A DNA stretch of 64,000 bases from Patiria miniata (Eukaryota): contig NW_024037076.1 in assembly GCF_015706575.1 (NCBI RefSeq), positions 22,605,286 to 22,669,285 on the forward strand, written 5' to 3'. Positions 10,056 to 51,972 of this stretch are shown piece by piece. The notes under the pieces were generated by a model. It did not search any database. It was not told where the DNA came from and worked only from the letters and a program-made list of their open reading frames with translations. The stretch's first letter is position 1. Every line of letters begins with the position of its first letter. The position numbers were made by a program, and so were the translations under genes.

Positions 10056-10544
10056 TTTACCACTACACCAAACGTGCTACACAACTTTAGGTGGGAATTT
10101 AATACATCTTATAATTCGGCCCTATTTTAAAGAGTACAGCGCCCTCTGTTGATAGGGATTGCCGCCGGGCAAACCTTTAGTAATCGTTAGTTTGCCGTCA
10201 TTACCTCCGGCAAAATATCCACTATCTTAACTTTTCAGTAAGGTAATTACAGCCCAAGGAAACTCAAAAGTACATCAAAAATGTAACATGAGTAACGTGG
10301 AATTGCCCTAAATATTTTTTTTATGTCGCGGCTATCGTGCACTGTGGCATCGTTTTTGACGGGCCTGTGCGCCCATGCATGCACCGGTCTACGTGGCCGT
10401 GCACAGTCACATTGTTTTGCCGGGCCTGTATGTGCGGGCACTTGCCGGTTAAAAAAAGAGAATCCATGTTATGCTTTATTTTCTCCCATCCCGACATACC
10501 CCCCCCCCCCCCCCGACATACCCCCCCCCCCCCCCCTCGGGTAC

Positions 10545-10800
10545 AATTGTCTCAGGTACGAGTTGTCTCGGGTACGAGTTGTCTCGGGTACGAGTTGTCT
10601 CGGGTACGAGTTGTCTCGGTACGAGTTGTCTCGGGTACGAGTTGCCTCGGGTACGAGTTGCCTCGGGTACGAGTTGCCTCGGGTACGAGTTGCCTCGGGT
10701 ACGAGTTGCCTCGGGTACGAGTTGCCTCGGGTACGAGTTGTCTCGGGTACGAGTTGTCTCGGGTACGAGTTGCCTCGGGTACGAGTTGCCTTGGGTACGA
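10545..10800. repeat. minisatellite, 16-bp unit GGGTACGAGTTG(T/C)CTC in about 16 copies, preceded by a duplicated cgacataccccccccccccccc
   Basis: Read directly. It generates the artefactual overlapping ORFs 10323..11382. Confidence 0.9.
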
Positions 10801-10959
10801 GTCAACATGAATTCCAGACCGGAAACGTCGAGTTTAAACCTCTGGTTCTTTTCAGTTCAGAACCATTCTCTTACTTTCTTAGTTGAAAAATTATTCGCAC
10901 ATGGTGTTTCCGCAAACCTTAGTATCTCCACCATGCAAAGCCTCAATCTTACGTGCGAT

Positions 10960-11270
10960 GTGCCTAGCATGGGCGTCGCCAGGATTTTTTCTAGAGGGGG
11001 GCAAAAACAAAATTTGCCAAGAAATGCTTGTATTTCTCAACACATTCTCGATTTATCAGTTTTAGAGGGGGGCAGGGACATTTTGCCCCCCCCCCCCCCC
11101 CCACTCATTAAATTTACACCACTTTGTCTTTGCGCCTCTTTTTTTTTTTTTTCTTTTCTTTTTTTTCTTCCTTTTTCTTCCTTTTTTTTTTTTTTGCTTT
11201 TCCAGGGGGGGGCAAGTGCCCCCCCTTGCCCCCCCCTCGCGACGCCCATGGTGCCTAGCCATATCATGTG
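10960..11270. repeat. inverted-repeat element (gcctagcatgggcgtcgcc...gggggg // cccccctcgcgacgcccatggtgcctagcc) enclosing G/C homopolymers and a pyrimidine tract
   Basis: The terminal inverted repeats are seen directly. Confidence 0.5.
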
Positions 11271-11399
11271 CTACTACTTAATAGCCACGCCCCTTAGAAG
11301 ACAACCCTATGGAGTTTTTGTACACTATTGTTTGGCTCATATTTTGCGCGTTCCGCTTCCATTTGTACATCATGTAATTTGACAATATTTCACAAGCTG

Positions 11400-15718: not shown

Positions 15719-16457
15719 GTGAGTAGTTCAAATATGTAGTAGTCATCAACAGGAACATTTTAAATACAATTGAATGATAATTCAAATATACAATGTAGTT
15801 GAAGGTAGGGACCAGGGCCCAATTTCACAGCGCTGCTTAACAGTTAGCAGAAAAGTTGTGCTTAGCATAGCAGAAAAATTTGCTAACCTTAAGCACTATT
15901 TTACCACGTGGATGTGCTAACAGTTGCACTTGCATGGAGATTTCTTATGTTACGTTACTAAGTTAAACACATTTTTCCTCTGAAGTAAGCATGTCTTTTG
16001 CTCTGCTTATGCTTACGGTCTCCATGAAATAGACGGAGCCTCTGTTAGCAGAAAGTCGTGTGCTTAGCAGCGCCGTGAAATTTGTGCTTGTTATTTTGTT
16101 AGCTGTGTAGCTATGTTAGGTTGTGGAGGGGCGCATGCCCCCCCCCCCCCTTCCCCATAAAAAATCATCACCCCCGGGCCCCCCCCCCCCCCCCCCATTT
16201 GATTTTAAATGAATACCGTGTTGAACAGATATTGCCTACAATGAGAACCCTGGCTACGCTGCTGCATTTGCCAGTCTTATAATTCGAAAAATATCTTTTT
16301 TACTTGTATTTTGAGATTTAAACTCTTTTTCAATTTGATGAATTGCCAGTGAGCATATTTATACAATTCTAAATTTTCATGGGAAGTCAACTTGGAATTG
16401 GTTTTTTTTTTACTAAGTATACATTCACTAAGATGATTGTTTTGTTTATATTTCCAG

Positions 16458-17752
16458 ATGCAATATGGCGTTCTGAAGTGATAGTTGGTGTGACCACTGT
16501 GGAAGAGTTTGAGCAGCTTGCTCGAACCATGCACAATAATTCAGGTTCTTACTTCCCTGCTAGTGTCAACCAGACAATCTCCAAAATCATCCCCACCATT
16601 GACCCCTTCAAGGTCTACATGGTAACACTAAACTACATCAATTATGTTATTCCATTATTTTTCTATGCAGTCCGCTATGCAGATGTCTTCTGGTTTTGCC
16701 ATAAAGGTTTTGCATTTATTTTCAGCATGCAGTTGATGTTGAATGCTATTCAATATGCACTTGGTTTTATCGGATTCTCTCTTTTGTACAAACTTCACTG
16801 GTATGGCTGGCATACTTATGGTTTAAAAGCAGATCCTGTCTTTGCAAAACCTACAGGTTTAGTTGGTGTCTACCTCAGTAATAATATAACAGTGTTTATG
16901 TCGGCAATTATTACTTACATGTACGGGTACAGTCGCTTGAAAGAAGCAGAATATAAACAAAAAGCTGCCAGGACAGGCATCCAAGTTAATCCAACAAGTT
17001 TTCCTCTCAAATGTAATGGGTATATTGCTAATATCGCAGCCGCTTTAGTAATGTGTGTCTTTGTTGCCTGTAAAGTCCCACTGACAATTGAGTATCTTGG
17101 TGTCTATCAAGTCTCAAAGGACGCAAGACTCCTGGCTTGTATAATATTTGACACGATCTACATGGCTTTTTGGTTAATCATGTGGATTGGATTCACTCTC
17201 AAACGAGATTGGGATTTTACCATTCATCCACCAAACGATCAAGATACTTCAACAGAGCAAGGGTCATCAAGCTGTGCTAGCCAGCGATTCATTGTCAGTC
17301 AGTCTCGAGATGTAGAACTACAACAAATCTCAAACTCTGATGAAAGAATTGAAGAGAGTCCTTCCAATCCAGTGGACCTTCGCCGTCATAAAACCCCTAA
17401 CCCCATCCACAATTCTCAGGGATCTTCTTCGTCTAATACACCATCTGAAAGACCAACCAAAGAATCAAACGTTTACACACGTCTCTTTAGTTCAGACTCA
17501 AAACGGAGTGCCTCAACCTCACCTGAATTGGTTTGCTCTTCATGCTCTCCCAATAGAGGGCAGCAAACGCCCATCCATTACAGAGGTATAACAAGATCAT
17601 CACACAGGAGTAGTGACCAAAGCTCTCGTAGTATTGAAGAAGAGTCTTTATTGGAGCAATCAATGAATGAGGAAGTGCAAGGAGAGGAAACTCAGGAACC
17701 ACATTCCCCAGATAAGTCGCATCAGAGTCAATCTGAAGATGGTTTGTGTTAA
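16458..17752 (+). CDS. same gene, large terminal exon (5 more TM segments plus a roughly 190-aa Ser-rich acidic tail); stop 17750-17752
   Basis: Acceptor tttccag at 16456-16457, in frame with ORF 16379..17752. The hydrophobic segments include FAFIFSMQLMLNAIQYALGFIGF, GLVGVYLSNNITVFMSAIITYMY, IANIAAALVMCVFVAC and LLACIIFDTIYMAFWLIMWIGF. Confidence 0.6.
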
Positions 17753-20575
17753 TACTTGTACTTCACTTCATCCAGTTCAGTTTTATGCAATATTCGTCCA
17801 GTATTTCACTAGGAGAACTGGTGGTGTTTTAGACTGAAATTCTTGGAAACCAAAATGTGTTTGAGAAGAAAATACATTTTTGGGAAGCTTAGTGTTGAAA
17901 GATGTTTTGGAAATGCATGTATTTCACTTTTCAATTGCAAATTTTAATTTTGAAATGCGATTTTAATTGGCAAGTCTTTCACTTATAATTTTTAAGTTGT
18001 AACAGAGGGCTTTGGTGATATGCTCGTAGGTGAGGCTCTCTTCTCTTGCATGAAACAGGCATTCACCTTACTTGCGTCTGCTAATCTGAAGATGTTTAGT
18101 TACTTTTCCATGTCCAGGAGTTTGTACATGATTGATACATTGACTGAAGCTTTAACGTGCCTTGTGTGGCTTAATGTTCTCTTCATGCACACAATATCTG
18201 GCGTGTTGGACTGAAATTGAATTGTTTCAGAAAAGACTGCAAGCATGCCAATCATGGGTAATGTTATCATTAATGAAGCAATTAGGTCCTGTTGTTAAAA
18301 GTTATTTTATTATCGAGAGTGTGATAGGGTATCTTTGTGTAATAGGGTATTTATGTGCAAATCTAACCATGAATGATGTAATTTGGCAGTCAGAATTGTT
18401 TTAGATGAACTAAGCTGATTTTTTTAAAGGTAAGTTCCGCTTGATAATGAAATAGTTATGTAAGTTGTCAAAAGATGTGAAAAGGGCGAAGTTCTTATAT
18501 GTACTTAATTGTCATGTCATCATAAAGGATTACCGCATTATAAATCCCTGGAGATTTTAACAGCACTGAAATGACTTAGTAGTTCCGATAACAGTGGACA
18601 TGTTCTCCAAAAACCAAAGGTAATTGTGTGCTTTATTGTTATCTTTAGTTATCAAAACAAAGATAGTTGTATTTTATTGTTCAAATCAAATAATATCTCT
18701 GATTTAATTGTCTATTTGTTAAGGCCTTAATTGCGTGTTGAGATAACTATACATATTGCATGATACCTAATAGCATTTTGCAATCAAATAGCAATCGTGT
18801 GTAGCATTGAAATTATGCATGACATGCATGTATTTCTAGTATCAATCTAATTTTCATAGAGTTTTTAAATCAAGCAATATTGTAATATTTTCTGAATCAC
18901 CGATTTTGTTCCACATTGCTGTTTTGATTTTTGAGAACGAGAAATTGTGTTTCCTTCTGAAAGCCAAAAACGTTTTATATAGTTGAAGGGCAAACCTTTG
19001 TACTTAACACAGCACAATATGCGCTTTTCCAAAATGTACAATTGTTGTTTTTATTAAGATTTTAGCCTGAGCTGTAGTAAACCAAAGTCTCCTTTACATC
19101 ACACTTCAGGTCTCACGGCATAGTAGTTTAATCTTGTACAAAAGCAGTTATCCCATTACTTTTATTTGTATATACTTGTGTTTATGCGTATTGGTCAGTA
19201 TTAATCCGCCGCACAGTAATATATTTTACCAGCACGTTATTACCATAACTAGTTTGTCACTCTCGCCTTAACCGGTGTCCTGTGACTTTCGGTCTGTTTT
19301 ACCTCATTTTGACTTTAACCCTAACACGTGACTTTTCACTGTTCTACTTTTGTCACTGAGGCATGCGCAATAAAACTGTGTTTCACTGTTGAGTCAAAAA
19401 TTCATACTAAAAAAAAAGTATTACAAAAAATTGTGGACTTTAATACAGGTAGTTTACTTGGAAGTACATGTATGACAATATATTACATGTACCACTTTGG
19501 TAATGAAATAATTGTGTTAATAGATCGAGATGATTTGTGTGCATATCAATGAAAAAATTAACGTGCAAGTTGAGTGATTTTGTAAACTTAAGCGGTTCGA
19601 TGGAACTTGTCATATATTAAATAGTGTATGAAAGAAAGCAATTGTCTATTGGTGGAATTTTCTTCTTTTTTTACCGCGTATAAGACTGGAATGACATATT
19701 CAAGTTCTCTTTCCCTTTTGTGTTAAAAGGAAGAAGTGTCAGAGTATTATTGATATCGTCCATAACGCGTGCTCTTTCCTCAACAAACATCTACGCTTCA
19801 AACCATCTACATTATTCCTCTTTCAACCACATCCCCTTCAATTTAGATGAAAACATTACCAACCACAACTTATGACACTACTTCTACTTCCTTCATGTTT
19901 TAGTCTCAAGCACACTCACCGTGGCTAATTTGACGGGTTCCCCCTTCTTTGCTGTAAATAATTGACATGAGCGTGACTTTACAAATTCTCATTGATTTGG
20001 ATCTGTCACTTAGTCACCGCTGTAAATAGTCATCTGTCCGGCAACGGGAAGGAAAAACACGAACGAACTTCATGTAATTGACTTTTGTATGTACCCTACT
20101 GATCAAGTACGCGCACGTACACTTAAAGCGTAAACACGCTTCAGTTGATTTCTGGTAATTAATTGCACTTTCAATCTCCTCACAGCCTCTCGATGTTACC
20201 CACAATGGCTAAATAAATCTGGAAAGTAAGCAGCGATCATGAATGCAGGGGTTGGGAAAGAGGTCAGTTTAACCATGGAGCAAGGAAAATGTTTAACAAA
20301 AGTGTCTGAAATTTGAAAAAAAAATACAGCAGAGGATACGAAAATGGATGGTCCGCTCAATGGAGACATAGACCATTTGCATGGAAATTTAATTTGTATC
20401 GATGGCAACTCAGAGTGGCGCATTTACTTTGTTTATTATTAACGGGGGCATTTCCTGTGATGGGAAAAGTGGTATCATCCGCCCACTCGCTTCATCACAA
20501 AACGATGCCTGGTTAGGTTGGGAAACATACCCTCTAGTTCCTCTATATACGTGTTCAGAGTTGCTTTCCGCAGAG

Positions 20576-22582
20576 ATGGGGTTTCTCAAGGTGTCTGTGG
20601 TGCTGTTTTCTGCTTTGGTGGTTTTCGGTGATATTCCATCTCGCGCCAAAATCAAATACAAGAGAGACGGACATTTTATCATCGGTGGGCTGTTTCCCGT
20701 TTACAGAATTTCTAGGCCGACTTGTGCTTATCTTGGTTGGAGTACAGTGTACAAAACAGAGTTGATGGTTTACGCCATCGAGCAGATAAATTCTCGTTCA
20801 GATGTACTTCCGAATGTAACCCTTGGATTTGACATTAGACCATACTGTGACGATGAATCCATTGTGATCACGAATGCTTTGTCTATGGCTGGTGTAGATG
20901 GAGTTACTACACATGATGAAGAAAACAGCAAGTTTGTTGGGTTTGTAGGACCAGGCACCAGTGTCACTAGTGTAGCGACTGCTATCACAACAACCGTGCA
21001 CAAGATTCCCGTTGTTTCTTACGCTGGATCCAGTATGGAGCTCAGCGATAAAACTCGGTTTCCTTACTTTCTGCGAACCTGGCCACCAGGCTCCCACCAA
21101 GCTGCGGCTATTGTTGATGTTTTACTCAGATTCAAATGGTCGTATGTTGGACTTGTTTACTCAAGAAACACTTACGGGATTCATGGCGCTCAAGAAATCG
21201 AAAAACTGGCCGATACTCACAACATATGCTTAGCTTTTTCGGTTCCACTTCCCGAGACGGTCGAAAAACGAGATATTGACATTGTTATGGAGAAGATCCT
21301 GATATTCCAGAAAGCTAAAGTCGTCATTTTCTTCGTCCATCCAGCAAAAAGTGGTATCGAAGTTCTTCAATCCTTGATGAAGACGATTCCTGATCATCCA
21401 GGACTAATAATAGTTTCTGGTGATTCTTTCGTGAGCTACTTGAATTATTATGGTGTTGCAAACGTTACGAGAGGTAGTGTTGGTATTCGCTCTTACTACA
21501 AAGAGGTTCCCGGATTCAGGGAACACATCCAAACTGTTCAAATGGAGGGAATGCCGGTGAGCCCGTGGTTCGAATGGTTGCAAAATTATCAAGTATCGAC
21601 AAACCCAAAGTGTCAAAACATAACACAGTGTCCCCTGTACTGTTATGACGGTTATTGCAATGATCATTATGTAGTTGATGCTGTCAGTTTATATGCTTCA
21701 GCTCTAGACAAAGTCTTGAACCAGATATGTAATGGCAATGTGAACTGTCTGATTAAGGAGATGAGTGGTCCATTGCTCATATCATATCTGAAGAATACAA
21801 GCTTTCAAGGTGTTGATGGGCTCTTTACATTCGACGTCCATGGACACCCTGGTGCCAAATATGACCTGACAATGCTTCAGTACCTTAACGGCTCTCATCG
21901 AGAAGTTAACATTGGATTTTGGGATTCACGTTCTGAGAACAACAACCATCTAGACATGACTTTGGATGACCTCCCTTGGCCTGAAGGTCACACATCACCA
22001 CCAATATCTGTTTGTCGTGAGACATGTCTCCCAGGGTACATCTCAGTCCCACTTGTCACCAAATGCTGTTATGGATGCCAACGTTGTCCGATCAACACTA
22101 TCGTAGTCAATGACACAGAGTGTCGTCCGTGTGTAAACTTTTTTTGGCCGAATGTCAACTACACTCGCTGCGAGAGAATCGCACCTTTATCCACTGAATG
22201 GCAAAGTGCTTTGACTTGCTCCATACTTGCTTTTACTGGTCTCGGTGTGGTTCTTACATCTTGCACTGGTACGGGACTGATTTATTACCGTCATCATCTA
22301 TTGATCAAAGCAACGGGACGAGAACTAAGTAGTGCCAACCTCCTAGGTCTCTTACTATCCTGCTTGACTGTTATTCCTATCCTGATCATTCCAACCGAAT
22401 TCTCTTGCGCCTTATCTGACGCCATGATTGCCCTCTGCCTCACGCTGACATACGCTCCTACGCTACTCAAGGTGAATCGCATCCATCGTATCTTCAAAGG
22501 AGCTAAGAAATCAAAAAAACGACCCAAGTTGGTATCTCCACGGCAACAGCTATTCTTGGTATCGGTTTTCACAGCTGTACAA
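20576..22582 (+). CDS. class C (family 3) GPCR resembling metabotropic glutamate receptors, exon 1: signal peptide, Venus-flytrap/ANF-receptor domain, Cys-rich domain, TM1-TM3
   Basis: Signal peptide MGFLKVSVVLFSALVVFG (ATG 20576). GGLFPV and the ...SYAGSSMELSDKTRFPYFLRTWPPGSHQAAAIVDVLLRFKWSYVGLV..YG motif match the mGluR ligand-binding-domain signature. The 9-Cys module is CRETCLPGY...CCYGCQRCP...CRPC. Donor caa|gtaaga at 22583. Confidence 0.8.
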
Positions 22583-22808
22583 GTAAGACTTGATTATTTT
22601 GTCTCTTTTTAATGTCTAATCGTTTCAATTCATCGCCTTCTTCACTTCACACATACCACTTGACCCATCCCCTATATAACAGCATGTCACCGATAGCAAC
22701 ACATGCAAAATGTCGAGTCCTAGTCCTTTTCTTGTGTGTTTTCTTATTATCGAAATGCATGCAGTGTTTTGCGAGTTTTATTAACAAAAACATAGAATGT
22801 CTCTCTTA

Positions 22809-23265: not shown

Positions 23266-23829
23266 GTACTCATCGTCATTGTGACGGTCATTTTCTACCC
23301 ATCTGTACCCACGATGATCCAACCATCAACACAGGAGAAACTTGTGGAGATTTACTGCCTCTTTCGCTCCGGTTTCTTTGCATCGTGCATCTACAACCTC
23401 CTCTTAGTCCTCGCTTGCTGCTACTACGCCTTCAAGACCCGTAAGGTACCAAGTAACTACAATGAGTCCAAGTTCATCGCCGCCAGCGTCTACTCAACAC
23501 TTCTCTTGGGCTCAGCAGCAGCCTTGGTGTACACTACTGCCGTAGGAGTAGAGACAATAAAAGCTACCCTGAGTTTGGTTGTACTTCTCAATGCTTATCT
23601 GACACTAGGCTGTGTCTACCTGCCAAAGCTATACGCGGCACGTTTCATCCGAGATTTGAGCGTTCTTGGTGTGCGCAGCTCCAGTGGGCACGCGGAAATC
23701 GGGCCCTCATCAGTTAGTGATGTCGGGTCGGCGTTGGCTGATAATTCCTATAGCGGTGGGCCTTTGAGTATTTCTCAAAGAAGGTCCGCCGTGTATCCAG
23801 AAAAAGTAAAATCCTCGGACAACATCTAA
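23266..23829 (+). CDS. same class C GPCR, exon 2 (TM4-TM7 plus C-tail; stop TAA 23827-23829)
   Basis: Acceptor aaag|gta at 23264-23265, phase 0. The junction ...FTAVQ|VLIVIVTVIFYP completes a TM helix. The TM7 motif LPKLY is the mGluR-type PKxY. Confidence 0.75.
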   Translation, partial: VLIVIVTVIFYPSVPTMIQPSTQEKLVEIYCLFRSGFFASCIYNLLLVLACCYYAFKTRKVPSNYNESKFIAASVYSTLLLGSAAALVYTTAVGVETIKATLSLVVLLNAYLTLGCVYLPKLYAARFIRDLSVLGVRSSSGHAEIGPSSVSDVGSALADNSYSGGPLSISQRRSAVYPEKVKSSDNI

Positions 23830-27838: not shown

Positions 27839-28204
27839 TAATATAGGAAGGGAAAGCCTCACCAAAACAGTTGACCAAATGACACTCAAAATTGACATTC
27901 TGATATTTCTTGACACATCTGAACAATTGGCAATGACACCTTCTTGAAGATCAGCAGGTTGAATTTTGTGGAAAGAGGGCAGGGCTTTGATTTATGAGGG
28001 AAATTAAGGGGTCAAAGACGACGATGACAACCAGAAAACAAACTGTGTGATTTTCACCAAAGCTTTATTCTCTCTAGCTTTCTAAGTTAATTCTATATTT
28101 TACATGTCTACATTGTGTATTACTTGTGAATTACGTAGTGTGCTTAAACATTGGATATTTTTCAGATCATTTCCGGATGTTTTGCTGCTGATTTACATGT
28201 AGTA

Positions 28205-29252
28205 ATGGAAGGTGGAGGAGACTCAGAGACAGCTTCAGTCATGGAATCAACATCACTTGGTAAATATTCCTCTGAGGGACATCAAACAGAAGAACATGTT
28301 GATGGAGAGGTAAAGGAGGAACAAGGAGAGGATGTCATTGAGAATGAAAGAGAAAGGGAATCACTGAACGATGGAACCGGTGACATGGAGATAGAAGACA
28401 GTCAGGGACAACATCTGAATGATTCATCTAAAGAAGATGTCAGCACCAATGGAATACATCGATTAAATGACATTGACCTGACACAAACAGAAGAAAGTGG
28501 CAATGGAAACAGTGACAAAGAACAACAGCTTAGTGATTTGTCGCAAGAAGACGGTAACATCAATGAAATAAAGGAAGATTTTCCGAATCACAGGATGAGT
28601 TGCCATGGTGACCATCCTAGTGAAACATCATGTCAAGACACTGTTGAAGAACCACGTAGCGAAATAGTGCAATCAGATATGACTGATAAAAGTGATCATA
28701 TTTCTCATAATGCAATCCCAGAGTCTGATAAATCAAGAACTTCAGACACACTGATGGATGGTGAACAGCCAAATCAAGCATCAGTAACTCCCAAAAAGAT
28801 TGAGTTGGTAGAAACTGGACAGGAAACTGCAACATGTTGTGCCGACACAGAAACCAAGACGTCCAGCCTAAAAGCTTCCTTCAATTGCAATCCATCTAAA
28901 AGTGTAAATTATAGTTCACCAGAGGCTTTCTTGTTGTCAATTTCAAAAGATGTAAGTGATGATTCTCAACTTAATATACCTGTGAAAACAGCCAGTGAAT
29001 CACATTCAAGACTTGCAATTAGTGCAGGAATGAAATCCCCGCAAATTGCTGAGAATCGAGAAAAACCAAAGACAAGAACTAAAGAGGAAGCCAAACAGAC
29101 TCAAAGATCTGAATTATCTTCAGAGAAACTGTCAAGAATTGAATGTACGTCAGTGCAATCAGCAAGAACAGCCATGGATCAGGATGATGATTTGCTGTCA
29201 GAATTGGATGCAGAATTGGATGACTTCTCGGTGCCACAGACACTTACTGAAG
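28205..29252 (+). CDS. CCDC186: CCDC186-like golgin (coiled-coil domain-containing protein 186), exon 1, encoding a roughly 350-aa acidic Ser/Asp/Glu-rich N-terminal region
   Basis: ATG 28205 (gtagtaATGg). An upstream tttttcag acceptor at 28164 suggests a 5'UTR exon. Donor g|gtaaaa at 29253. Frame from ORF 28151..29302. Confidence 0.65.
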
Positions 29253-29641
29253 GTAAAATAATGTTCGACCAAACAACTTGTCCCTTTAGTACTTTCAACT
29301 AAAAGCATTCTGGGTTTGGATTTTTCCTGGACCTTTGTTTTTCAGACTTTTCCTCCGAATTCTAAAATTGTAATTTCTTCTGGAATATATAAAATTCCAA
29401 AGTACTTAGCATTCAAGCAAAGACCTTCTGTTTTTTTATTCTCTCTGCGAAGGAGTTTTAAGGTCCTCAATTTTGAAAGTAATTTCAAATTTATCTACAT
29501 TTGTATAATTTCTCTGACTTTAAGATTGAACGCTACATGTAGTAGGATAACGTGAAGCACTGAACAGGCTATATACATAAATAGATAAGTCTGTCTTTGT
29601 GTAATTTGTTCATATTTCTCACATCCTCCCATTTCCTGCAG

Positions 29642-37689: not shown

Positions 37690-38100
37690 GTATAGGACCA
37701 TGTCTTAATTACTTGGCTATGACCAGCAGCAGCACACAGGTCTATAGGATGTAGAGTCAGCAGCTACCATAATTACTTGGCTATGACCAGCAGCAGCACA
37801 CAGGTCTATAGGATGTAGATTCAGCAGCTACCATAATTACTTGGCTATGACCAGCAGCAGCACACAGGTCTATAGGATGTAGATTCAGCAGCTACCATAA
37901 TTACTTGGCTATGTCCAGCAGCAGCACACAGGTCTATAGGATGTAGATTCAGCAGCTACCATAATTACTTGGCTATGACCAGCAGCAGCACACAGGTCTA
38001 TAGGATGTAGATCCAGCAGCTACCATAATTACTTGCCTATGGCCAGCTGCAGCAGCACACAGGTCTTTAGGGTGTAGCTTTAGCAGCTACCATAATAACT
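37690..38100. repeat. tandem repeat, about 60-bp unit in about 6 copies (ggctatgaccagcagcagcacacaggtctataggatgtagattcagcagctaccataattactt), in CCDC186 intron 15
   Basis: Seen directly. Confidence 0.9.
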
Positions 38101-39185
38101 TGACTATGCCCCCCCCCCCTTCTAAATTTTCACCCAATTATGTTTTGTCCTCTCTTCTTCTGATTCATACTAAACCACTGCCATGACCCTAAATTTATCC
38201 ACTCACAATTTGTAACCAAATTAAATGTAGTAAATAAAATACATACTTCTCTGTAACTGTGTAAGATGTTTTCACAATTATGTCAATACTCTTTGGTTTT
38301 ATACTTGTTTCTTATTTTGTTTGATCCGTTCTGAAAACCTCATGCCTGTATGCTTTTCTCCAGCAACAGTAATCTGACACAACTGCCAGATTCTTCAAAG
38401 AGTTTTCCTGCCCTGAGAATAACCCAGTTCACAATTGCATCTTGTTTTTCTGTCACTTTTCCCCCAATAAATTGCTGCTTTGTTTTCCTTTGCTATCATG
38501 CTTCCATTGTTTTCAGTCCCCATCCGGCTTACGAAGCACTATGGTAAGAATTCCCACATCACTGAATGGACCTCTTGCTTTTCACGGCCGTCTTGTCATC
38601 AGCTTTGCTCATGTTTGTAGTCTGCAGAGCATGCAAGCTAACAGCATGAAAAGCACAGTTTTGGTGTTGCTTTGAAAAAAAAATGTCCTTCACTGGCTTT
38701 TTCTTCATCCCGAAAAGTATTTGAATTTTGCGATTTTACTTTCATTTGGGCAAGTTCTTATTCTTTAAACTGCATGCTAAAAGTGTTTTCTACATTTGTA
38801 AAAAAAAAATTATTTGAACTGCCATAAACTGCCAAATCTTTTTATAGTTATATGCATGCCATATAGCTGATCAAATTTAACCATGAAAAGTTACTCCTGA
38901 TGTCGCTAAATTATTTCAAAGGGATTGCAAAATAGACCTAGTGAATTACATGTCTCAACTGTAGCTATTGCTGTGATTTTTTTTTGTGTGTTGCTTGCTG
39001 TCCTTGATTTTTTTAAGAAGGAAATCGTTATTTTGAATTGCGTTTTGTTTTGTTGATACCAAGTACATTCTGTAGATCATTTTGTATTAGTTGCTTTGAA
39101 TGATAAACACCTCATTTGCACTGAGTGAAATTAGAATTATTATTTTCTATTGGTTTAAAATTTGTCTTCATTTTACGTAAACTTT

Positions 39186-44328: not shown

Positions 44329-45321
44329 ATGATGGAAGGCATGAGTAACGCAAATATTTCTCAGATGGAATCCATGGATCAGAAAACAATTCATATTCTT
44401 AAACTAATCGTCATGACGCTCCTAACTTCCACAACAATTGCAGCAAATTTGGTGTGTTTTTCTGTCCTGGCGTTTGACTGGAAGAACCGTAACGTTTCTC
44501 AAGTCTTTATGATGTCGCTAACTGTATCAGACCTTGCTGTTGGTATCGTCATGTGTGTTCCTGTCACCGTGTCTTTGGCTGTTAATCGCTGGCCGTTTGG
44601 AGATGTATTTTGCCTTGTGAATGCCATCGTGACGTACTTCTTATTAATAATAGCATGTGGCTGTGTTCTGTTTGTCAACCTGGAGAGATTTGTGACAATA
44701 ATGTGGCCCTTGCGAAGTGTGACATATATAACTGTAAAACGAGCTGAAATTGTTGTCATTTGCCTGTGGACCTCTTCGTTTGTATTAGCTCTTTTATATG
44801 GATTACTGCCTTGGAGAGCAGCTTTATATGCCGAAAGAGCTCATCAGTGTGTGGTAGACCCTACTGACGAAGATGTTATCGATATCTTTGGTACTTTGTC
44901 AACTGGGATGTATTTTACAGTTCTCCTCGTCTGTTTCACACAGTATTTCTACTTGTATCGAATTGTACGTCACCATCGTCGAGTTATCATGCCCGCCCCC
45001 GCGCTACATGCTCCGCCACGCCCACGAGGATTGTCCTCGTCAGATTTCAAAACAGCTACAACATTTTTCCTCATGGTTGCAACGTTGGCAGTAACATGGA
45101 CTCCGGAAACCATTGTGATTCTTTATGAATCAGTAACTCGCCGAGATGCTTCACCTTCCACCATTTTCTCAGCTCAGTTCCTTGGCTACTGTAACGGCAT
45201 TTTAAATGTCGTGATTTATTTTGTTAGAAATGAACCGTTTCGACAATCCGCTAAAAGGTTTTGGCGAAAATTGAAAAGACCGATTGGTTGCCAGTCTTGG
45301 CTTCAGTCTGAGAGAGCTTAA
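44329..45321 (+). CDS. intronless orphan class A (rhodopsin-like) GPCR, 330 aa
   Basis: ORF 44329..45321. It has an N-terminal N-glycosylation site (NAN/IS) and 7 TM segments. The motifs are TM1 N (NLVCFSV), TM2 LTVSDLAVG, TM3 Cys plus ERF (DRY variant: VNLERFVTI), TM4 W (CLWTSS), TM6 TWTP (CWxP variant), TM7 NVVIY (NPxxY variant) and helix-8 FVRN. There is no Lys in TM7, so it is not an opsin. Confidence 0.8.
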   Translation: MMEGMSNANISQMESMDQKTIHILKLIVMTLLTSTTIAANLVCFSVLAFDWKNRNVSQVFMMSLTVSDLAVGIVMCVPVTVSLAVNRWPFGDVFCLVNAIVTYFLLIIACGCVLFVNLERFVTIMWPLRSVTYITVKRAEIVVICLWTSSFVLALLYGLLPWRAALYAERAHQCVVDPTDEDVIDIFGTLSTGMYFTVLLVCFTQYFYLYRIVRHHRRVIMPAPALHAPPRPRGLSSSDFKTATTFFLMVATLAVTWTPETIVILYESVTRRDASPSTIFSAQFLGYCNGILNVVIYFVRNEPFRQSAKRFWRKLKRPIGCQSWLQSERA

Positions 45322-46352: not shown

Positions 46353-47777
46353 AATCCGAACATTGTGAGAAAAATCAAGACTGATCTTAACATTTCACGA
46401 TGATGGCTCAAGGTCACACGAATCTCCGAAGCAACGTTTTAATCTGTCAAAAGCTGTCCAATAATATGGGTTCTGTTGTCAGTTTGCTTTTAATTGTGAT
46501 CGCAGACTTTGCAAGCAAATAAATAAAATGAGACAATGTGCATCTGAGTTGAAAATGAATAGTCAAAGAACTTATGCATTTACACCCTTTATAATAATTT
46601 TGTTGCTGGTAGTTGTACCTTTTTTCTTGAACGCTATATAGGCCTATAGGGAACTGGAGGGCAACATTAAAAATGCAAAATCATCTGCCTTATTACGATG
46701 AAAGTTTTTGGCAAAGCTTTTTTGTTAATTGGGTGAATGAATCTACAACAATGCTGGATAACCTTGTAAGGGACGGTTCAACAGCGGGGAGAAAGTGAGA
46801 CATTATAGCTTCCCAGAGGCACCCCCTCCCCCAACCAAAATAAAATGTCAAAAAATGTTTTGAGTGGATGATATTTTCTGAGGCTTGCGGAACGTTCAAA
46901 AACGTCAAGACTCCAAAAAAAGTCTGAAAGTTGGGTATTACAAAGATTGTTAATCCCCCCTCCGAAAAAAATAACAGCAATAACTTTAACCTTACACAAC
47001 TATCCTCACCCACTCCCACCCCTCGATCATCAAATATATATTTTCTTGGCGACTTAAAATTGTCACGTTTTTAGGCCGTATGTAGGCGTTTGATTGAAGA
47101 CAGTTCGTTCAGTGTGAAGGCATCTTCTTCCTGCAGAAGAAATTTATCCATACATTTTGCCTCTAGCATAGCACCTGGAAAATTATAAATAAACATGGAA
47201 ATATATAGCTATGACTCAGTTTCTAGACAGTTTGTTTACTGTAAACTGCGTGACAAGTTCAAAACTACATATTATGTAAGTTTACTCGTGCAGTGGCGGA
47301 ACTTGCGAGGCACAGCGGCACTCTCCCCCCCCCCCCCCCCCCCCCACTCTGCTCGAGCAAAGTGCCTCTTGTACTGTACTATGTGCCCCCTCCCCTCCCC
47401 GCTGTTTGAAGTTAGGAGAAGGCAGTGCTCGTCATTTATGTGCCCGACGCCTGCAAGTAATTTGGACCCTGATTGCACTACTAGGTTTACTCCGCGCGTC
47501 TTTAGTCTGGGCCACCGGGGATTTATGATTCTTTTTTACTCACTTTTTTTTGGGGGGGGGGGGGTAATATTGGGGCAACCTGATTGTAATTACTGGTTGT
47601 GAAGTGTTGGCGCTTTCTTCAACCAATCAAAGCCCCCATTGTCACCTTACACATAAGTAATTGTTTGAAGCTTTGCAAGGTGGAGTGATAAGTAGAGAAG
47701 TAGGTTTGCGTGTACAGCATGGACAAATCTCATTTGTGGGGAAGTGTTGGCTGTTAAGAGAGCTGGCATGGGTCTAA

Positions 47778-48090
47778 GGGCGGATCCAGAACAGAATTTT
47801 TTTTGGGTGGGCCAAACATTTTTTGTGTCCACCCAAAAAGTGGGTCAAAAAAATTACGGCGTGGGGTTCGGGGCCCGCTTAAGGGCCCCGAAAATTTTTT
47901 GGATTCTAGATGCTCTGTGGTGCGATCTGAGGCAATTTCTGACCACTTTAACCAATGTTTTTTTTTGAGGAAAAGATGGTGGTGTACTCATTGCCTGCCT
48001 TTATTGCAATGTCACATAAAAAATAAAAAAATGGTTTCGTTTTGGGGGGGGGCCATGGCCCCCTTTGGCCCCCCCCCCCTGGATCCGCCC
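47778..48090. mobile_element. MITE of the 'ggcggatccag' family (TIR gggcggatccag ... ctggatccgccc) with the 9-bp direct repeat CATGGGTCT on both sides
   Basis: TIRs at 47778-47789 and 48079-48090. CATGGGTCT sits at 47767-47775 and 48094-48102. It lies inside a larger inverted-repeat structure in which 47645-47766 is about 80% identical to the reverse complement of 48160-48275. Confidence 0.65.
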
Positions 48091-49459
48091 TTGCATGGGT
48101 CTCGACGTTTCGAACACTATACTCCATTCGTCTTCAGGAGACTGAAGACGAACCCTCTCACCTCCGGCTCTCTTCAGAGCCAACACTTCTCACAAAAGAG
48201 ATTTGTCAATGGTGTACACGCAAACCTACTTCCCTACTCACCTTGCACCTGTTTACGAATTTCAAATTAGATGCCAAACCGAGGCTCTCAGTGCTAGAGA
48301 CAAAGGGGAGCACTGGGGGCCTCAGATTCGGTTTGAAATTCGTGTATCCACCTACGTCAACCCATCACCGTCGCACGATTTCCTTTTGTCTCAACAAACG
48401 GTATCGTTTCATTGTACTGTGAGCTGAAGAAGCTCAAATGTCTAGGTCATTGCCGTTTTTCAGCTTCGGTTTTCTTTCAAGTCTCCTTTTATCCCGGACA
48501 GCTGTTGTTAGAAAATAGGATACAAACGTGAGTTGAATATCCGGAGCAGTAATTAACTTTACACCTCATCCATTTTCCCAAAACACACGCTGCAAGGATG
48601 ACGTCTTTAAGATAAATCAAATGATTATTGTACACTGAGAGAATTGTGCGATTTTGTATTGTTCAAATGCACCTGTTGTGGTGTCCCTACATATCCGATT
48701 CTGCACGCGTTGCCAAGCTTGTCGGGTGTATCCAATTGCCCTTTGAAAAGGAAATGCGCACAGGTGTTAATACACTGAATTCTTTAGTAACTTTTTCAAA
48801 TTCTAACATTTTTTTATCTCTTTACTTACGTCTTTTGTCTGTTTACCAATGATCACCCGATTTCATATGTAAGTTTCTTTGCCCTAACAAACTACTTTTT
48901 AATGAACTGCACATATCTGCTGCTGCATACTGTACGATGTATTCAGTTCGCCTACTCGCAAGATTGAAAGTTGATGGACAGCTTATTGTTTTATTCGGTA
49001 AGAATTTAGTACAATTCACACTGCACTTCAAAAATATTCTTCCATAAAATCAGTTGCTAATGTTAGTACCGTCATTTCATGACTCTAACTGATCGTATTA
49101 TTTTCGTACAATCTTTGACAGGGAATGTATTTGAGTTTTGTTAAATATTAAAAAACATTTGGAGACGTGTGCTCATTCTATGGAACCAATTGTTTATTTA
49201 TTGTGTAAAGCCTTTTTAAATTAAAGCACGAACTCGACAAATAAAACAGCTTATTACGCAAAAGTTAACACTCCGAGAAATTGAATCACAGTGCATACAG
49301 AAATAAGACAGTGGCTATATCAAACGAAATTGGAATGAATTTTTAATATTGGTGTATGAAGTGTCTTTAGTTGTAATAATTGGTGATTACAGGATGATAT
49401 TTTGAGTGATGCTGTGTACGAAGACTGCCCTAGGCAGAGCTCAAACCGGAAAAACATAT

Positions 49460-49525
49460 TTGCAACCAGCTGGTCACTTGCAATCAACGTGGAATAATTG
49501 ATGACCACTGACTTCTATAAAAACA
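49460..49525 (+). promoter_or_regulatory. candidate promoter of the insulin-like gene: E-box CAGCTG (49467-49472), TAAT element (49495-49498), TATA box tataaaaa (49516-49523)
   Basis: Seen directly. The arrangement is reminiscent of insulin-gene E-box/A-box promoters, but that is inference. A predicted 5'UTR exon, about 49546-49650, ends at the donor cag|gtaggt and is followed by a 755-bp intron to the acceptor tttgcag at 50406-50407. Confidence 0.35.
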
Positions 49526-50412
49526 GCCACATATCTCTCGGACGATCACTGATTCAATTCCTTGTCTTGGAGTGATCTTCAAGTGGCTGAATTCGGAGGA
49601 CGGGTTTGCTACAATTTCGTCAACGTGAACTTCGGAAGTGTTAGAGTCAGGTAGGTGAAAATTACGTTGTGCACAATGATCAAGGAGCCTAGAGTTTTCC
49701 ATATTCCTATATTTGTTTGTTAATTTTTTCCCCTGGTCTCGGTATTGTGTAGATGTTGAAACTTTGGGCTGACGACTTATAGTTAAATGTTGAACCTATA
49801 CTTTTCTGTTTATGTTGAGCGATCTATTGTTCCATGCACTCCACCAGTGCGAATTCTGGTGCAGTCCTTATTTTTTCCCGATCAAGATTGTTAAATTACC
49901 GTAATCATATTTTAAACATTAAAATTTACAACGGGTTTTGAGTGACTGACAATAATTGTACATTCAAATTCATCTCTCCCCAAACTCACTTGATTTTTTC
50001 GTATTGCCTTACAGGCGAGTACGTAATAATTACGCTCTGAGATTTTAACGTTTTAAGTAATACAAAGTCGTGAGCTTAATTCCAATTTCAAAAAAGTGCT
50101 TGTGAATTAATGTATATCCGTTTTCGCAAATGCAATTGACACATGCATGCTCACATTATGAAACCATCATACCATCCAGGATAAACAAACATGTTGGTGT
50201 AGACGTGTTGATATTATTTTTTTCAGTGGAATTGTATGTAGGCCTACTTGGTTCAATATTCCATGGAATATATACCAACATGGGAATCTATGGAGGGCTA
50301 AGCCTATTGCTGCTCAACTCATTTTGTTTACTCAGAAGTCTGAAATAACATTGAATAATTGATATCTTCGAATGGATCTGATGAGATCATTTCTGACTCG
50401 TTTGCAGCAGAT

Positions 50413-50629
50413 ATGGCATCACAGTGCCGCCTAATCCTAGCCTCAATCTCAGCCGTCTGTTTGGTAATCACCTCTTTGATGTGTCTACCAGCCGTGCAAG
50501 CCACTGAAACGACCAACAGGCACTGCGGGGCAGCTTTTCCCGACTTTGTATTGGCGGCTTGTTCAATGGCTAAGCGATCCATCAGATCATCACCGTCACT
50601 GCATGACTTGCTCCAAGCTTTTAAATCAG
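50413..50629 (+). CDS. insulin/relaxin-superfamily peptide precursor, coding exon 1: signal peptide, B chain and N-terminal part of the C-peptide
   Basis: ATG 50413. Signal peptide MASQCRLILASISAVCLVITSLMCLPAVQA. The B chain TETTNRHCGAAFPDFVLAACSMA carries the insulin-family CG-x10-C signature, then the dibasic KR. Donor cag|gtttga at 50630 (phase 1) is the only phase-compatible donor. Frame from ORF 50359..50655. Confidence 0.7.
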
Positions 50630-50820
50630 GTTTGAGCTTTTCTCCATCAGTGTGATCCTTTATACAAACCAAGTTGACTTATGATTCAGTTGCGCATCCA
50701 ATGGCGGATCTGGGGGGGGGGGGGGGCTCAACCAAATAAGAAAGGTAAGGGGAAATAAAGAAACTAAATTTGTTGATTCTTAAGCAAAGTATTGTGTTCC
50801 CCTTATTTCATTGTCCACAG

Positions 50821-50951
50821 ATGAATACCAGGCAAACCGTTACACCTCACCCATTCATCTGCGCAAGCGCGAAGAATACATGACAATAGCCGACTATTGC
50901 TGTTCTGTTGGATGTTCTCCAAGCGACCTCGTTGCTTCAGGAATTTGTTAA
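50821..50951 (+). CDS. insulin/relaxin-superfamily peptide precursor, coding exon 2: rest of the C-peptide, the RKR cleavage site, and the A chain EEYMTIADYCCSVGCSPSDLVASGIC (stop TAA 50949-50951)
   Basis: Acceptor ttgtccacag at 50819-50820. The A chain has CC-x3-C-x10-C. The block EEY..IA.YCC..GC.PS.L resembles, from memory, the starfish relaxin-like gonad-stimulating peptide A chain [24 protein letters not shown]. Together with the B chain this gives 6 Cys in total. Confidence 0.7.
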
Positions 50952-51101
50952 TTTTCACGGGAAAATTGTGAAAAATGCTGATTTTTTTAATTTCACTTAC
51001 GGCCTGATGTGAATCAAACTATTTGATATCACGGTCGAGTCAAATGTTGTACTTGATCTATAGGCCTAACATGTGTTCGGCAAAACTTCCATAATATCAG
51101 T

Positions 51102-51232
51102 GGCGGATCCAGGGGGTGCGGTGGGCCCCCGGCAGTGACCGAAATTGTCTCAAATAAGTCAATTTTTCACTTGAGAAAGCTCCCCCCCCCGCACACCCTC
51201 CGCCCCCGGCAGCAACCTCTCTGCATCCGCCC
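51102..51232. mobile_element. short MITE of the 'ggcggatccag' family (ggcggatccaggggg ... ctgcatccgccc) with internal C-runs
   Basis: The termini are similar to 47778-48090. Solo-TIR fragments also occur at 39889-39902 and 50702-50712. Confidence 0.45.
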
Positions 51233-51972
51233 TTGTAGGTAACATCCATTTCATTATTACACAGACAACCACCTGGATAGCCCAATGTAAGATGGATCCA
51301 GTCAAATATTGGGAAAAACAATAATTAATCATTACGCTCAATCAGCGTAGGCCTACTTATTGTTTAACCTTGATAATGTGGAGAAAATGTTATAAACAAG
51401 TGTTTACTGTAATGAGCCAAAATAATAATGATTACTTACACTCTTTAACAAATATTTATTCAGATTGTTGAAAGAATCTCTTTTTTTCGGTCGGTCATAA
51501 ATGATGAATTTTGTAGTCTGACGTCATTGCTTGTGTAGGATTTTTTCATGACGTCATCGTTTACCTATTGTTTCCCATCTCTAGTTACATTAATTAAGTT
51601 TTCGGAAACTAAAATATCTCTGTATAGCAGAACGCTAAGTCGTGCTTGTCATTATTGGTATAAACCGTCTTTACTTGCTTTTGCATTAGGCCTAAATGTA
51701 CAAAGGGAAAATGCTGAATAAAGTCTAACAATTAAATCTACAACCGACACCATGGTTGGTCGTTAATCATTTATGAAAACGTTTTATCCCTCTCCACCCA
51801 AACAAGCTGCCAGGGTCTTTCCTTTCCCTTTGTCGTACTTTTCGAGGGAAGAAAATAGATTGATTTTGTTTTTTCTTAAAAAACAAATATGCTTAGAGCA
51901 AGGCGTCGATGTGGAAGTTATGCTAGCCATGCAATCTATTCAAGAACTATTGTAAAGAACCTACTCACGCGG

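What the first reader, a model, noticed from the sequence alone, without database searches (positions are those of the whole stretch)
49460..50951. Compact, apparently complete insulin/relaxin-superfamily gene with echinoderm RGP-like A chain
A small two-coding-exon gene of 115 aa encodes a signal peptide and a B chain HCGAAFPDFVLAAC, which has the exact CG-x10-C spacing of the insulin family. It continues with a KR site, a C-peptide split by a phase-1 intron, an RKR site, and an A chain EEYMTIADYCCSVGCSPSDLVASGIC ending at the stop. Upstream there is a TATA box, an E-box/TAAT promoter and a 5'UTR intron, the classic layout of insulin-like genes. From memory, the A chain is strikingly similar to starfish relaxin-like gonad-stimulating peptide, the hormone that triggers oocyte maturation. 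One deviation is that the distal Cys spacing is x10 where the canonical form is x8. Such small peptide genes are routinely missed by gene predictors. The overlapping 114-aa antisense ORF 50328..50672 would mask it.
Basis: partly seen in the sequence, partly recalled or inferred. Interest (0 to 1): 0.85.

Follow-up and report, generated by a model that had tools for sequence, protein, structure and literature searches.

The report
Starfish spawning-hormone gene RGP2 (known)

Summary
Joining 50413..50629 to 50821..50951 (+ strand) across a GT-AG, phase-1 intron gives a 115-aa precursor: signal peptide, B chain, KR, C-peptide, RKR, A chain, stop.

It is 97% identical over its full length to GenBank 'relaxin-like peptide 2 [Patiria pectinifera]'. 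Its predicted A and B chains are identical to the published 'Pmin_RGP2' (Patiria miniata) peptide in PMC11863921. The gene is therefore the RGP2 (formerly RLP2) orthologue, not RGP1.

The 'deviant' x10 distal Cys spacing is the conserved hallmark of RGP2: a two-residue insertion, ...SGIC. Synthetic RGP2 with this spacing induces spawning and activates the RXFP/LGR3 receptor in other starfish.

Profile comparison places it with relaxins (hhalign 97.6%, E 4e-12) rather than insulin/IGF (63%). Pfam Insulin alone is sub-threshold (17.8 against 23 bits).

The TATA box, E-box and 5'UTR intron are plausible but could not be tested. The antisense ORF is a by-product.

One small new point: the published P. 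miniata precursor carries seven C-peptide residues (GLSFSPS) that are intron read-through. The canonical splice gives DEYQANR, as in P. pectinifera.

Verdict: real gene, correct interpretation, already known, low novelty.

The parts
49467..49472 (+). CAGCTG E-box-like hexamer, followed by TAAT strings (putative promoter element)
   Evidence: Present as a string. There are 36 CAGCTG in the window, so it is not distinguishable from chance. Function not tested.
49516..49522 (+). TATAAAA, putative TATA box
   Evidence: It is one of 11 on the + strand of the window. It lies 129 nt upstream of a strong donor-like site. Inference only.
49546..49650 (+). Putative non-coding exon 1 (5'UTR). The 5' end is a guess, about 30 nt downstream of the TATA box.
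   Evidence: Ends at donor CAG|GTAGGT, one of only 6 strong donor-like sites on the + strand of the window. No transcript evidence available.
49651..50407 (+). Putative 5'UTR intron (757 nt)
   Evidence: GT...AG with acceptor TTTGCAG|C, 5 nt before the ATG. Not verified.
50408..50629 (+). First coding exon (CDS from ATG at 50413). Signal peptide aa 1-30 = 50413-50502; B chain aa 31-53 = 50503-50571; KR = 50572-50577; conserved N-terminal half of the C-peptide = 50578-50629.
   Evidence: The translation is identical to P. pectinifera RLP2 except T20P and T33M. The B chain is identical to published Pmin_RGP2. Signal peptide and B chain lie in one exon, which is the relaxin/Dilp8-type structure rather than Dilp7-type (PMC11863921).
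50630..50820 (+). Phase-1 intron (191 nt) inside the C-peptide. Contains a G14 run and a fragment of a dispersed repeat at 50695-50723.
   Evidence: GT/AG. The junction is confirmed at protein level by P0001 (KS-DEYQANR). A phase-1 intron at this position is conserved in relaxin-type genes. Repeat fragment.
50821..50951 (+). Second coding exon. C-terminal half of the C-peptide = 50821-50861; RKR = 50862-50870; A chain aa 90-115 = 50871-50948; TAA = 50949-50951.
   Evidence: The A chain EEYMTIADYCCSVGCSPSDLVASGIC is identical to published Pmin_RGP2. There is one difference (S105A) from P. pectinifera.

Best explanation
The locus is the Patiria (almost certainly P. miniata) orthologue of the starfish gene for relaxin-like gonad-stimulating peptide 2 (RGP2, formerly relaxin-like peptide 2, RLP2).

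Shown here:
- Two coding exons split by a phase-1 intron encode a 115-aa preprohormone.

Inferred by homology:
- The signal peptide is removed after VQA30.
- Prohormone convertases cut at KR54-55 and RKR87-89, and the basic residues are trimmed.
- This yields a 23-aa B chain (TETTNRHCGAAFPDFVLAACSMA) and a 26-aa A chain (EEYMTIADYCCSVGCSPSDLVASGIC).
- The chains are held by the insulin-type disulfides A10-A15, A11-B8 and A26-B20. Predicted monoisotopic mass is about 5121.1 Da.

[quoted passage not shown] - This raises cAMP and induces 1-methyladenine production, and so oocyte maturation and spawning. RGP2 acts as a paralogue of RGP1.
For: -: the only database hit is nr 'relaxin-like peptide 2 [Patiria pectinifera]', 97% identity, 100% coverage, E 3e-67.
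- 3 differences in 115 residues, and the predicted exon junction is reproduced exactly.
- the A and B chains are identical to 'Pmin_RGP2' in PMC11863921. The three residues that differ from P. pectinifera match the published P. miniata sequence.
- 57%, 46% and 47% identity to Acanthaster, Asterias and Marthasterias RGP2, against 36% to Pmin RGP1. All RGP2 share the two-residue A-chain insertion and C-terminal SGIC.
- the RGP2 profile against the vertebrate relaxin/INSL profile gives hhalign 97.6%, E 4e-12; against insulin/IGF it gives only 63%, E 7e-5.
- an echinoderm relaxin-type profile hits PDB relaxin-3, relaxin-2 and INSL3 A chains (E 0.002-0.005).
- (PMC11863921): RGP2 genes have a phase-1 intron in the C-peptide and no intron between signal peptide and B chain, as found here. 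RGP1 and RGP2 activate RXFP/LGR3 but not LGR4 and induce spawning.
- (PMC10216564): Pmi-RLP2 is already listed. RGP action runs via cAMP and 1-methyladenine.
Against: - Nothing contradicts the identification.
- Pfam Insulin (PF00049) scores 17.8 bits, below its gathering cut-off of 23.
- A single-sequence search of the PDB finds nothing relevant.
- The single-sequence AlphaFold model is low confidence (pLDDT 55), so the fold was not verified computationally.
- Expression, processing and bioactivity of the P. miniata peptide itself were not tested here. [quoted passage not shown]
Confidence: 0.95

Rival explanations
1. An unexpressed or decaying duplicate (pseudogene) of RGP2 rather than the functional gene.
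For: No transcript evidence could be obtained with these tools. According to the table in PMC11863921, the gene has no RefSeq gene identifier.
Against: The ORF is intact, with canonical GT-AG sites and a good Kozak context. There are only 3 conservative differences in 115 residues from the P. pectinifera protein; all six Cys and both processing sites are kept. There is only one such motif in the window. The published Pmin_RGP2 peptide is this same sequence.
Confidence: 0.03
2. A different insulin-superfamily member (RGP1/GSS, insulin/IGF-type or Dilp7-type) rather than RGP2.
For: The A chain is 14/24 identical to the Pmin RGP1 A chain. The Pfam Insulin family match is generic.
Against: Identity is 36% to Pmin RGP1 against 97% to Ppec RLP2. 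The RGP2-specific two-residue insertion and SGIC end are present. hhalign favours relaxin over insulin/IGF. There is no phase-2 intron and no spacer between signal peptide and B chain, which excludes the Dilp7-type structure.
Confidence: 0.01
3. A chance ORF or repeat-derived sequence, with the real gene being the 114-aa antisense ORF 50328..50672.
For: The antisense ORF is long for this window. A dispersed-repeat fragment lies in intron 2.
Against: The sense product has an E 3e-67 homologue. The antisense ORF starts with TTG and has no Pfam match. Its span runs beyond the conserved sense exon on both sides, into intron 1 and intron 2. The repeat fragment (50695-50723) is intronic and does not touch coding sequence.
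Confidence: 0.01

Closest known systems
Patiria pectinifera relaxin-like peptide 2 / RGP2 (nr protein P0001; per PMC11863921 Dataset S3 the record is BDX53187.1 / LC757026.1)
   Same: Length is 115 aa, with 112/115 identical. Signal peptide, B chain, KR, C-peptide (100% identical), RKR and A chain are the same, and the sequence across the exon junction is identical. Synthetic Ppe-RGP2 induces oocyte maturation and spawning (PMC11863921 citing Mita et al. 2023, Gen Comp Endocrinol 343:114369).
   Different: T20P (signal peptide), T33M (B-chain N-terminus) and S105A (A chain). It is a different species.
Published 'Pmin_RGP2 / Patiria miniata RLP2' (PMC11863921 Fig. S2 and Dataset S4; Pmi-RLP2 in PMC10216564)
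   Same: A chain and B chain are identical and 108/115 of the precursor is identical. All three residues that distinguish the window from P. pectinifera agree.
   Different: The published precursor has GLSFSPS at residues 73-79. That is the translation of intron read-through (window 50630-50650). The canonical splice gives DEYQANR, as in P. pectinifera. The mature chains are unaffected.
Starfish RGP1 (gonad-stimulating substance, GSS)
   Same: Same precursor architecture, phase-1 intron in the C-peptide, receptor (RXFP/LGR3) and gonadotropic action according to PMC11863921. The A-chain core Y..IA.YCC..GC.PS.L is shared.
   Different: Paralogue with 36% precursor identity. RGP1 has the canonical CC-x3-C-x8-C, whereas RGP2 has x10 and ends in SGIC. 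The RGP1 B chain has an acidic DDD/DED stretch where RGP2 has G-A/L-A/E.
Vertebrate relaxins / INSL3 / INSL5 and Drosophila Dilp8
   Same: Profile-profile homology (97.6%, E 4e-12). The A-chain motif CC.xGC(S/T)xx(D/E)(L/I) and the phase-1 intron are shared, and the receptor is of the LRR-GPCR (RXFP1/2-LGR3) type (PMC11863921).
   Different: There is no RxxxRxxI/V cassette in the B chain; that this cassette is the vertebrate RXFP1-binding motif is from my own knowledge. The C-peptide is much shorter, and the last A-chain loop has two extra residues.

Membership tests
Insulin/IGF/relaxin superfamily (Pfam PF00049) | Six cysteines: B chain C-x11-C (CG-x10-C) and A chain CC-x3-C-...-C | tested here: met
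   B chain: C38-x11-C50. A chain: C99, C100, x3, C104, then C115. All six are invariant in the alignment of 10 echinoderm/amphioxus relaxin-type precursors.
Insulin/IGF/relaxin superfamily (Pfam PF00049) | Canonical x8 spacing between the third and fourth A-chain cysteines | tested here: not met
   The spacing is x10 (SPSDLVASGI). The same x10 occurs in all five RGP2 sequences compared. These peptides are accepted relaxin-type ligands that are active when synthesised (PMC11863921). The spacing is therefore a subfamily variant, not grounds for exclusion.
Insulin/IGF/relaxin superfamily (Pfam PF00049) | Score at or above the Pfam gathering threshold | tested here: not met
   17.8 bits, E 0.0069, against a cut-off of 23. 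All 10 related precursors match PF00049 at E<=1, best 2e-6.
Insulin/IGF/relaxin superfamily (Pfam PF00049) | Precursor order: signal peptide - B chain - basic site - C-peptide - basic site - A chain - stop | tested here: met
   Hydrophobic N-terminus with VQA|T, then KR54-55, RKR87-89, and the A chain ending at the stop codon.
Insulin/IGF/relaxin superfamily (Pfam PF00049) | Insulin fold (three helices, three disulfides) | tested here: inconclusive
   The single-sequence AlphaFold2 model of P0001 has mean pLDDT 55 and pTM 0.39, too poor to use. Deeper alignments could not be submitted.
Relaxin/Dilp8-type subfamily | Profile-level similarity to relaxins greater than to insulin/IGF | tested here: met
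   hhalign of the RGP2 profile against vertebrate relaxin/INSL gives 97.6%, E 4e-12. Against insulin/IGF it gives 63%, E 7e-5. PDB profile hits are relaxin-3, relaxin-2 and INSL3 A chains.
Relaxin/Dilp8-type subfamily | Phase-1 intron within the C-peptide, and no phase-2 intron or spacer between signal peptide and B chain (which distinguishes it from Dilp7-type) | tested here: met
   The 50630-50820 intron is phase 1. [quoted passage not shown] The criterion is from PMC11863921.
Vertebrate relaxin (RLN1-3) | B-chain RxxxRxxI/V receptor-binding cassette (my own knowledge of the family) | tested here: not met
   The B chain between the cysteines is GAAFPDFVLAA, with no arginine. The locus is not filed as a vertebrate-type relaxin.
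Asteroid RGP2 (RLP2) orthogroup | A chain with a two-residue insertion and a Gly-Ile before the last Cys (…SGIC); Ala before the second B-chain Cys | tested here: met
   The A chain ends ...LVASGIC and the B chain reads ...VLAAC. Both features are noted for RGP2 in PMC11863921 and seen in the alignment.
Asteroid RGP2 (RLP2) orthogroup | Closest relatives are RGP2, not RGP1 | tested here: met
   Identity to RGP2 of Patiria pectinifera, Acanthaster, Asterias and Marthasterias is 97%, 57%, 46% and 47%. Identity to RGP1 sequences is 32-36%.
Asteroid RGP2 (RLP2) orthogroup | Gonadotropic activity and activation of RXFP/LGR3 | not testable with these tools
   Shown for orthologues in A. rubens, A. 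cf. solaris and P. pectinifera (PMC11863921), not for this species' peptide.
Asteroid RGP2 (RLP2) orthogroup | Transcribed and spliced as predicted; processed to a two-chain peptide | not testable with these tools
   No starfish transcript data were reachable. The coding junction is supported only indirectly, by the P. pectinifera protein.

The most novel reading that the evidence does not exclude
The exon-2 half of the RGP2 C-peptide (SIRSSPSLHDLLQAFKS) may be functional in its own right. It could be a folding or processing determinant for the unusually long last A-chain loop, or the source of an additional secreted peptide.

This segment has 7/17 positions invariant across four starfish lineages. 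That is about as conserved as the B chain (7/23) and A chain (12/26). The exon-3 half has 0/14 invariant.

The segment abuts the part that is wrong in the published P. miniata precursor.
Probability: 0.1. Interest if true: 0.4.

Novelty: already known. Interest (0 to 1): 0.15.

Why it matters
RGP2 is one of two invertebrate gonadotropins that link relaxin signalling to reproduction across deuterostomes. P. miniata is a main developmental and oocyte-maturation model. The gene's existence and the peptide's chains are already published, so this finding adds little.

What it does add is practical:
- an exact genomic gene model (coordinates, splice sites, phase) for a gene that appears to lack a RefSeq identifier;
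- a corrected C-peptide sequence for the P. miniata precursor;
- a predicted mass for the mature peptide.

It also shows that the first-stage reader can recover a tiny peptide-hormone gene from raw sequence.

Tried and rejected
- **Transcript contigs.** Looking up transcript or genomic contigs that encode the protein failed. P0001 is not on record. Neither the exact window protein nor the published variant is in the 15-billion-protein collection.
- **Species confirmation through a neighbour.** The intronless GPCR at 44329-45318 has only a 40%-identical relative in the database. The database evidently lacks the Patiria proteome. The absence of a P. miniata hit therefore says nothing about annotation status.
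- **Single-sequence phmmer against the PDB.** Only spurious ankyrin-repeat matches. The profile search was informative instead.
- **AlphaFold2 on a single sequence.** pLDDT 55, unusable, so no fold search was run.
- **Antisense ORF as a gene.** No Pfam match, TTG start. Rejected.
- **Tandemly duplicated insulin-like genes.** A six-frame motif scan found only this one.
- **Rfam and tRNA scans of the window.** Nothing found.
- **Promoter elements.** Their frequency in the window is too high to draw a conclusion.

Full report
**Observation**

The region 49200-51200 was read and translated. On the + strand an ATG at 50413 (context GCAGCAGATATGG) opens a reading frame that runs to a GT donor after 50629 (TCAG|GTTTGA). 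An AG acceptor before 50821 (CCACAG|AT) resumes the frame in phase 1, and it ends at TAA 50949-50951.

The spliced CDS is 348 nt and encodes 115 aa:
- signal peptide MASQCRLILASISAVCLVITSLMCLPAVQA
- B chain TETTNRHCGAAFPDFVLAACSMA
- KR
- C-peptide SIRSSPSLHDLLQAFKSDEYQANRYTSPIHL
- RKR
- A chain EEYMTIADYCCSVGCSPSDLVASGIC, followed directly by the stop.

A six-frame scan found no other CC-x3-C-x7..11-C motif in the 64-kb window.

**Identity**

A search of 5.8 billion proteins returned one hit. It is nr 'relaxin-like peptide 2 [Patiria pectinifera]', 115 aa, 97% identical over 100% of the query, E 3e-67. The differences are T20P, T33M and S105A.

The hit reproduces the sequence across the predicted exon junction (…FKS-DEYQANR-YTSPIHL…). 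This confirms the 50629/50821 splice at the protein level.

The literature shows that RLP2 was first found in Asterias rubens transcriptomes. It was then found in P. pectinifera, P. miniata, Marthasterias glacialis and Acanthaster cf. solaris. It was renamed RGP2 once synthetic peptides were shown to induce oocyte maturation and spawning (PMC10216564; PMC11863921).

Fig. S2 and Dataset S4 of PMC11863921 list 'Pmin_RGP2'. Its A chain (EEYMTIADYCCSVGCSPSDLVASGIC) and B chain (TETTNRHCGAAFPDFVLAACSMA) are identical to those encoded here. It also carries the three residues that distinguish the window from P. pectinifera.

The window is therefore almost certainly Patiria miniata genomic DNA, and the gene is its RGP2.

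**Family placement tested here**

- Pfam Insulin (PF00049) matches residues 37-109, but below its gathering score (17.8 against 23 bits, E 0.0069). All ten echinoderm and amphioxus relaxin-type precursors I aligned match PF00049 at E<=1, best 2e-6.
- A profile of those ten hits the PDB A chains of relaxin-3, relaxin-2 and INSL3 at E 0.002-0.005.
- Profile-profile comparison of the five RGP2 sequences with eight vertebrate relaxin/INSL precursors gives 97.6% probability, E 4e-12. Against six insulin/IGF-type precursors it gives only 63%, E 7e-5.
- The gene structure fits the relaxin/Dilp8-type definition in PMC11863921 and excludes the Dilp7 type. [quoted passage not shown]
- Identity is 57%, 46% and 47% to Acanthaster, Asterias and Marthasterias RGP2, against 32-36% to RGP1 sequences.

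**The 'deviation'**

The x10 distal spacing is shared by all five RGP2 sequences. It aligns as a two-residue insertion relative to RGP1 and vertebrate relaxins, ending in the SGIC motif that the authors highlight.

Synthetic RGP2 peptides with this spacing activate RXFP/LGR3 and trigger spawning. For A. rubens the EC50 is about 3.8e-7 M, against 2.3e-8 M for RGP1. The spacing is therefore compatible with a functional insulin-type peptide.

My own attempt to model the fold was uninformative: single-sequence AlphaFold2 gave pLDDT 55.

**Mechanism**

Shown here: the gene structure and the encoded precursor.

Inferred by homology:
- signal-peptide cleavage after A30;
- convertase cleavage at KR and RKR with trimming of the basic residues;
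- disulfides A10-A15, A11-B8 and A26-B20;
- a heterodimer of about 5121.1 Da.

Inferred from orthologues (PMC11863921, PMC10216564): the peptide binds the LRR-containing GPCR RXFP/LGR3 on gonadal somatic cells. cAMP rises, 1-methyladenine is produced, and oocyte maturation and spawning follow.

**Upstream elements**

CAGCTG (49467), TATAAAA (49516), a strong donor CAG|GTAGGT (49650/49651) and the acceptor TTTGCAG|C (50407/50408) are all present.

Strong donor-like sites are rare: 6 on the + strand of the window. TATAAAA occurs 11 times on that strand. Their arrangement 0.8-0.9 kb upstream of the ATG is therefore suggestive.

No starfish transcript data were reachable, so the 5'UTR exon and promoter remain inference. 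The first AATAAA/ATTAAA signals downstream of the stop are at 51717 and 51731.

**Antisense ORF**

The ORF at 50328..50672 (114 aa) starts with TTG and has no Pfam match. It overlaps the coding exon on the other strand. I treat it as a by-product of the sense coding sequence.

**A small correction**

The P. miniata precursor printed in Dataset S4 of PMC11863921 reads …FKS-GLSFSPS-YTSPIHL…. GLSFSPS is exactly the translation of the intron immediately after 50629, where the frame runs …KSGLSFSPSV*.

The canonical GT-AG splice gives DEYQANR, identical to the P. pectinifera protein. The mature chains are unaffected.

The same paper's Dataset S3 gives no LOC or XP identifier for P. miniata RGP2. 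It attaches the P. pectinifera accession BDX53187.1 instead, and it lists Acanthaster RGP2 as an XR_ (non-coding) record.

The absence of a P. miniata protein in my own search proves nothing. A neighbouring intronless GPCR also lacks a close hit, so the Patiria proteome is evidently not in that database.

**Verdict**

It should be refined from 'RGP-like' to 'RGP2 orthologue'. The gene and peptide were published in 2023-2025, so novelty is 'already known' and interest is low.

The most novel reading not excluded concerns the exon-2 half of the C-peptide. It is as conserved across starfish as the chains themselves (7/17 invariant, against 0/14 for the exon-3 half) and may have a function of its own.

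Noticed in passing
window 50630-50650 (start of intron 2): The published P. miniata RLP2/RGP2 precursor (PMC11863921 Dataset S4) has GLSFSPS at residues 73-79, which is this intron translated by read-through. The canonical splice gives DEYQANR, as in P. pectinifera. The record is also labelled with a P. pectinifera accession (BDX53187.1).
   Followed up: yes
window 50578-50629 versus 50821-50861: The exon-2 half of the C-peptide is 7/17 invariant across four starfish lineages (motif S.RS.....D....FKS). That is comparable to the A and B chains. The exon-3 half is 0/14 invariant.
   Followed up: partly
window 47691-48238; also 47779, 48082 (-), 50703, 51102: A foldback (MITE-like) element with 48-nt and 26-nt inverted arms. 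A short dispersed motif, GGCGGATC followed by a G/C run, recurs four times. One copy lies inside intron 2 of the RGP2 gene next to a G14 run, and one lies about 150 nt past the stop codon.
   Followed up: partly
window 44329-45321 (+): An intronless 330-aa rhodopsin-family GPCR about 5 kb upstream of RGP2. Pfam 7tm_1 E 2e-30. The best solved relatives are histamine H2, muscarinic, beta-1 adrenergic and TAAR receptors. The closest database protein is only 40% identical. It has no LRR ectodomain, so it is not a relaxin-type receptor.
   Followed up: partly
window 20402-22612 and 23281-23829 (+): Two large ORFs that together encode a class C GPCR: ANF_receptor ligand-binding domain, NCD3G, and 7tm_3 split across the two ORFs. 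This is probably two exons of one gene.
   Followed up: no
window 16379-17752 (+) and 28151-29302 (+): A 457-aa ORF with several hydrophobic segments and a Ser-rich tail, and a 383-aa acidic Ser/Glu-rich ORF. Neither has a Pfam match.
   Followed up: no
window 10490-10802 and 37706-38108: Minisatellites. One is a 16-nt unit x 17 copies preceded by a C-rich 22-mer. It generates the stack of overlapping long 'ORFs' on both strands at 10323-11382. The other is a 64-nt unit x 6.2 copies.
   Followed up: no
window 50328-50672 (-): A 114-aa antisense ORF overlapping the first coding exon, with a TTG start and no Pfam match. The window has 27 stop-to-stop ORFs of at least 114 codons, against about 4 in mononucleotide shuffles. 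Most of the excess is real exons and repeats.
   Followed up: partly
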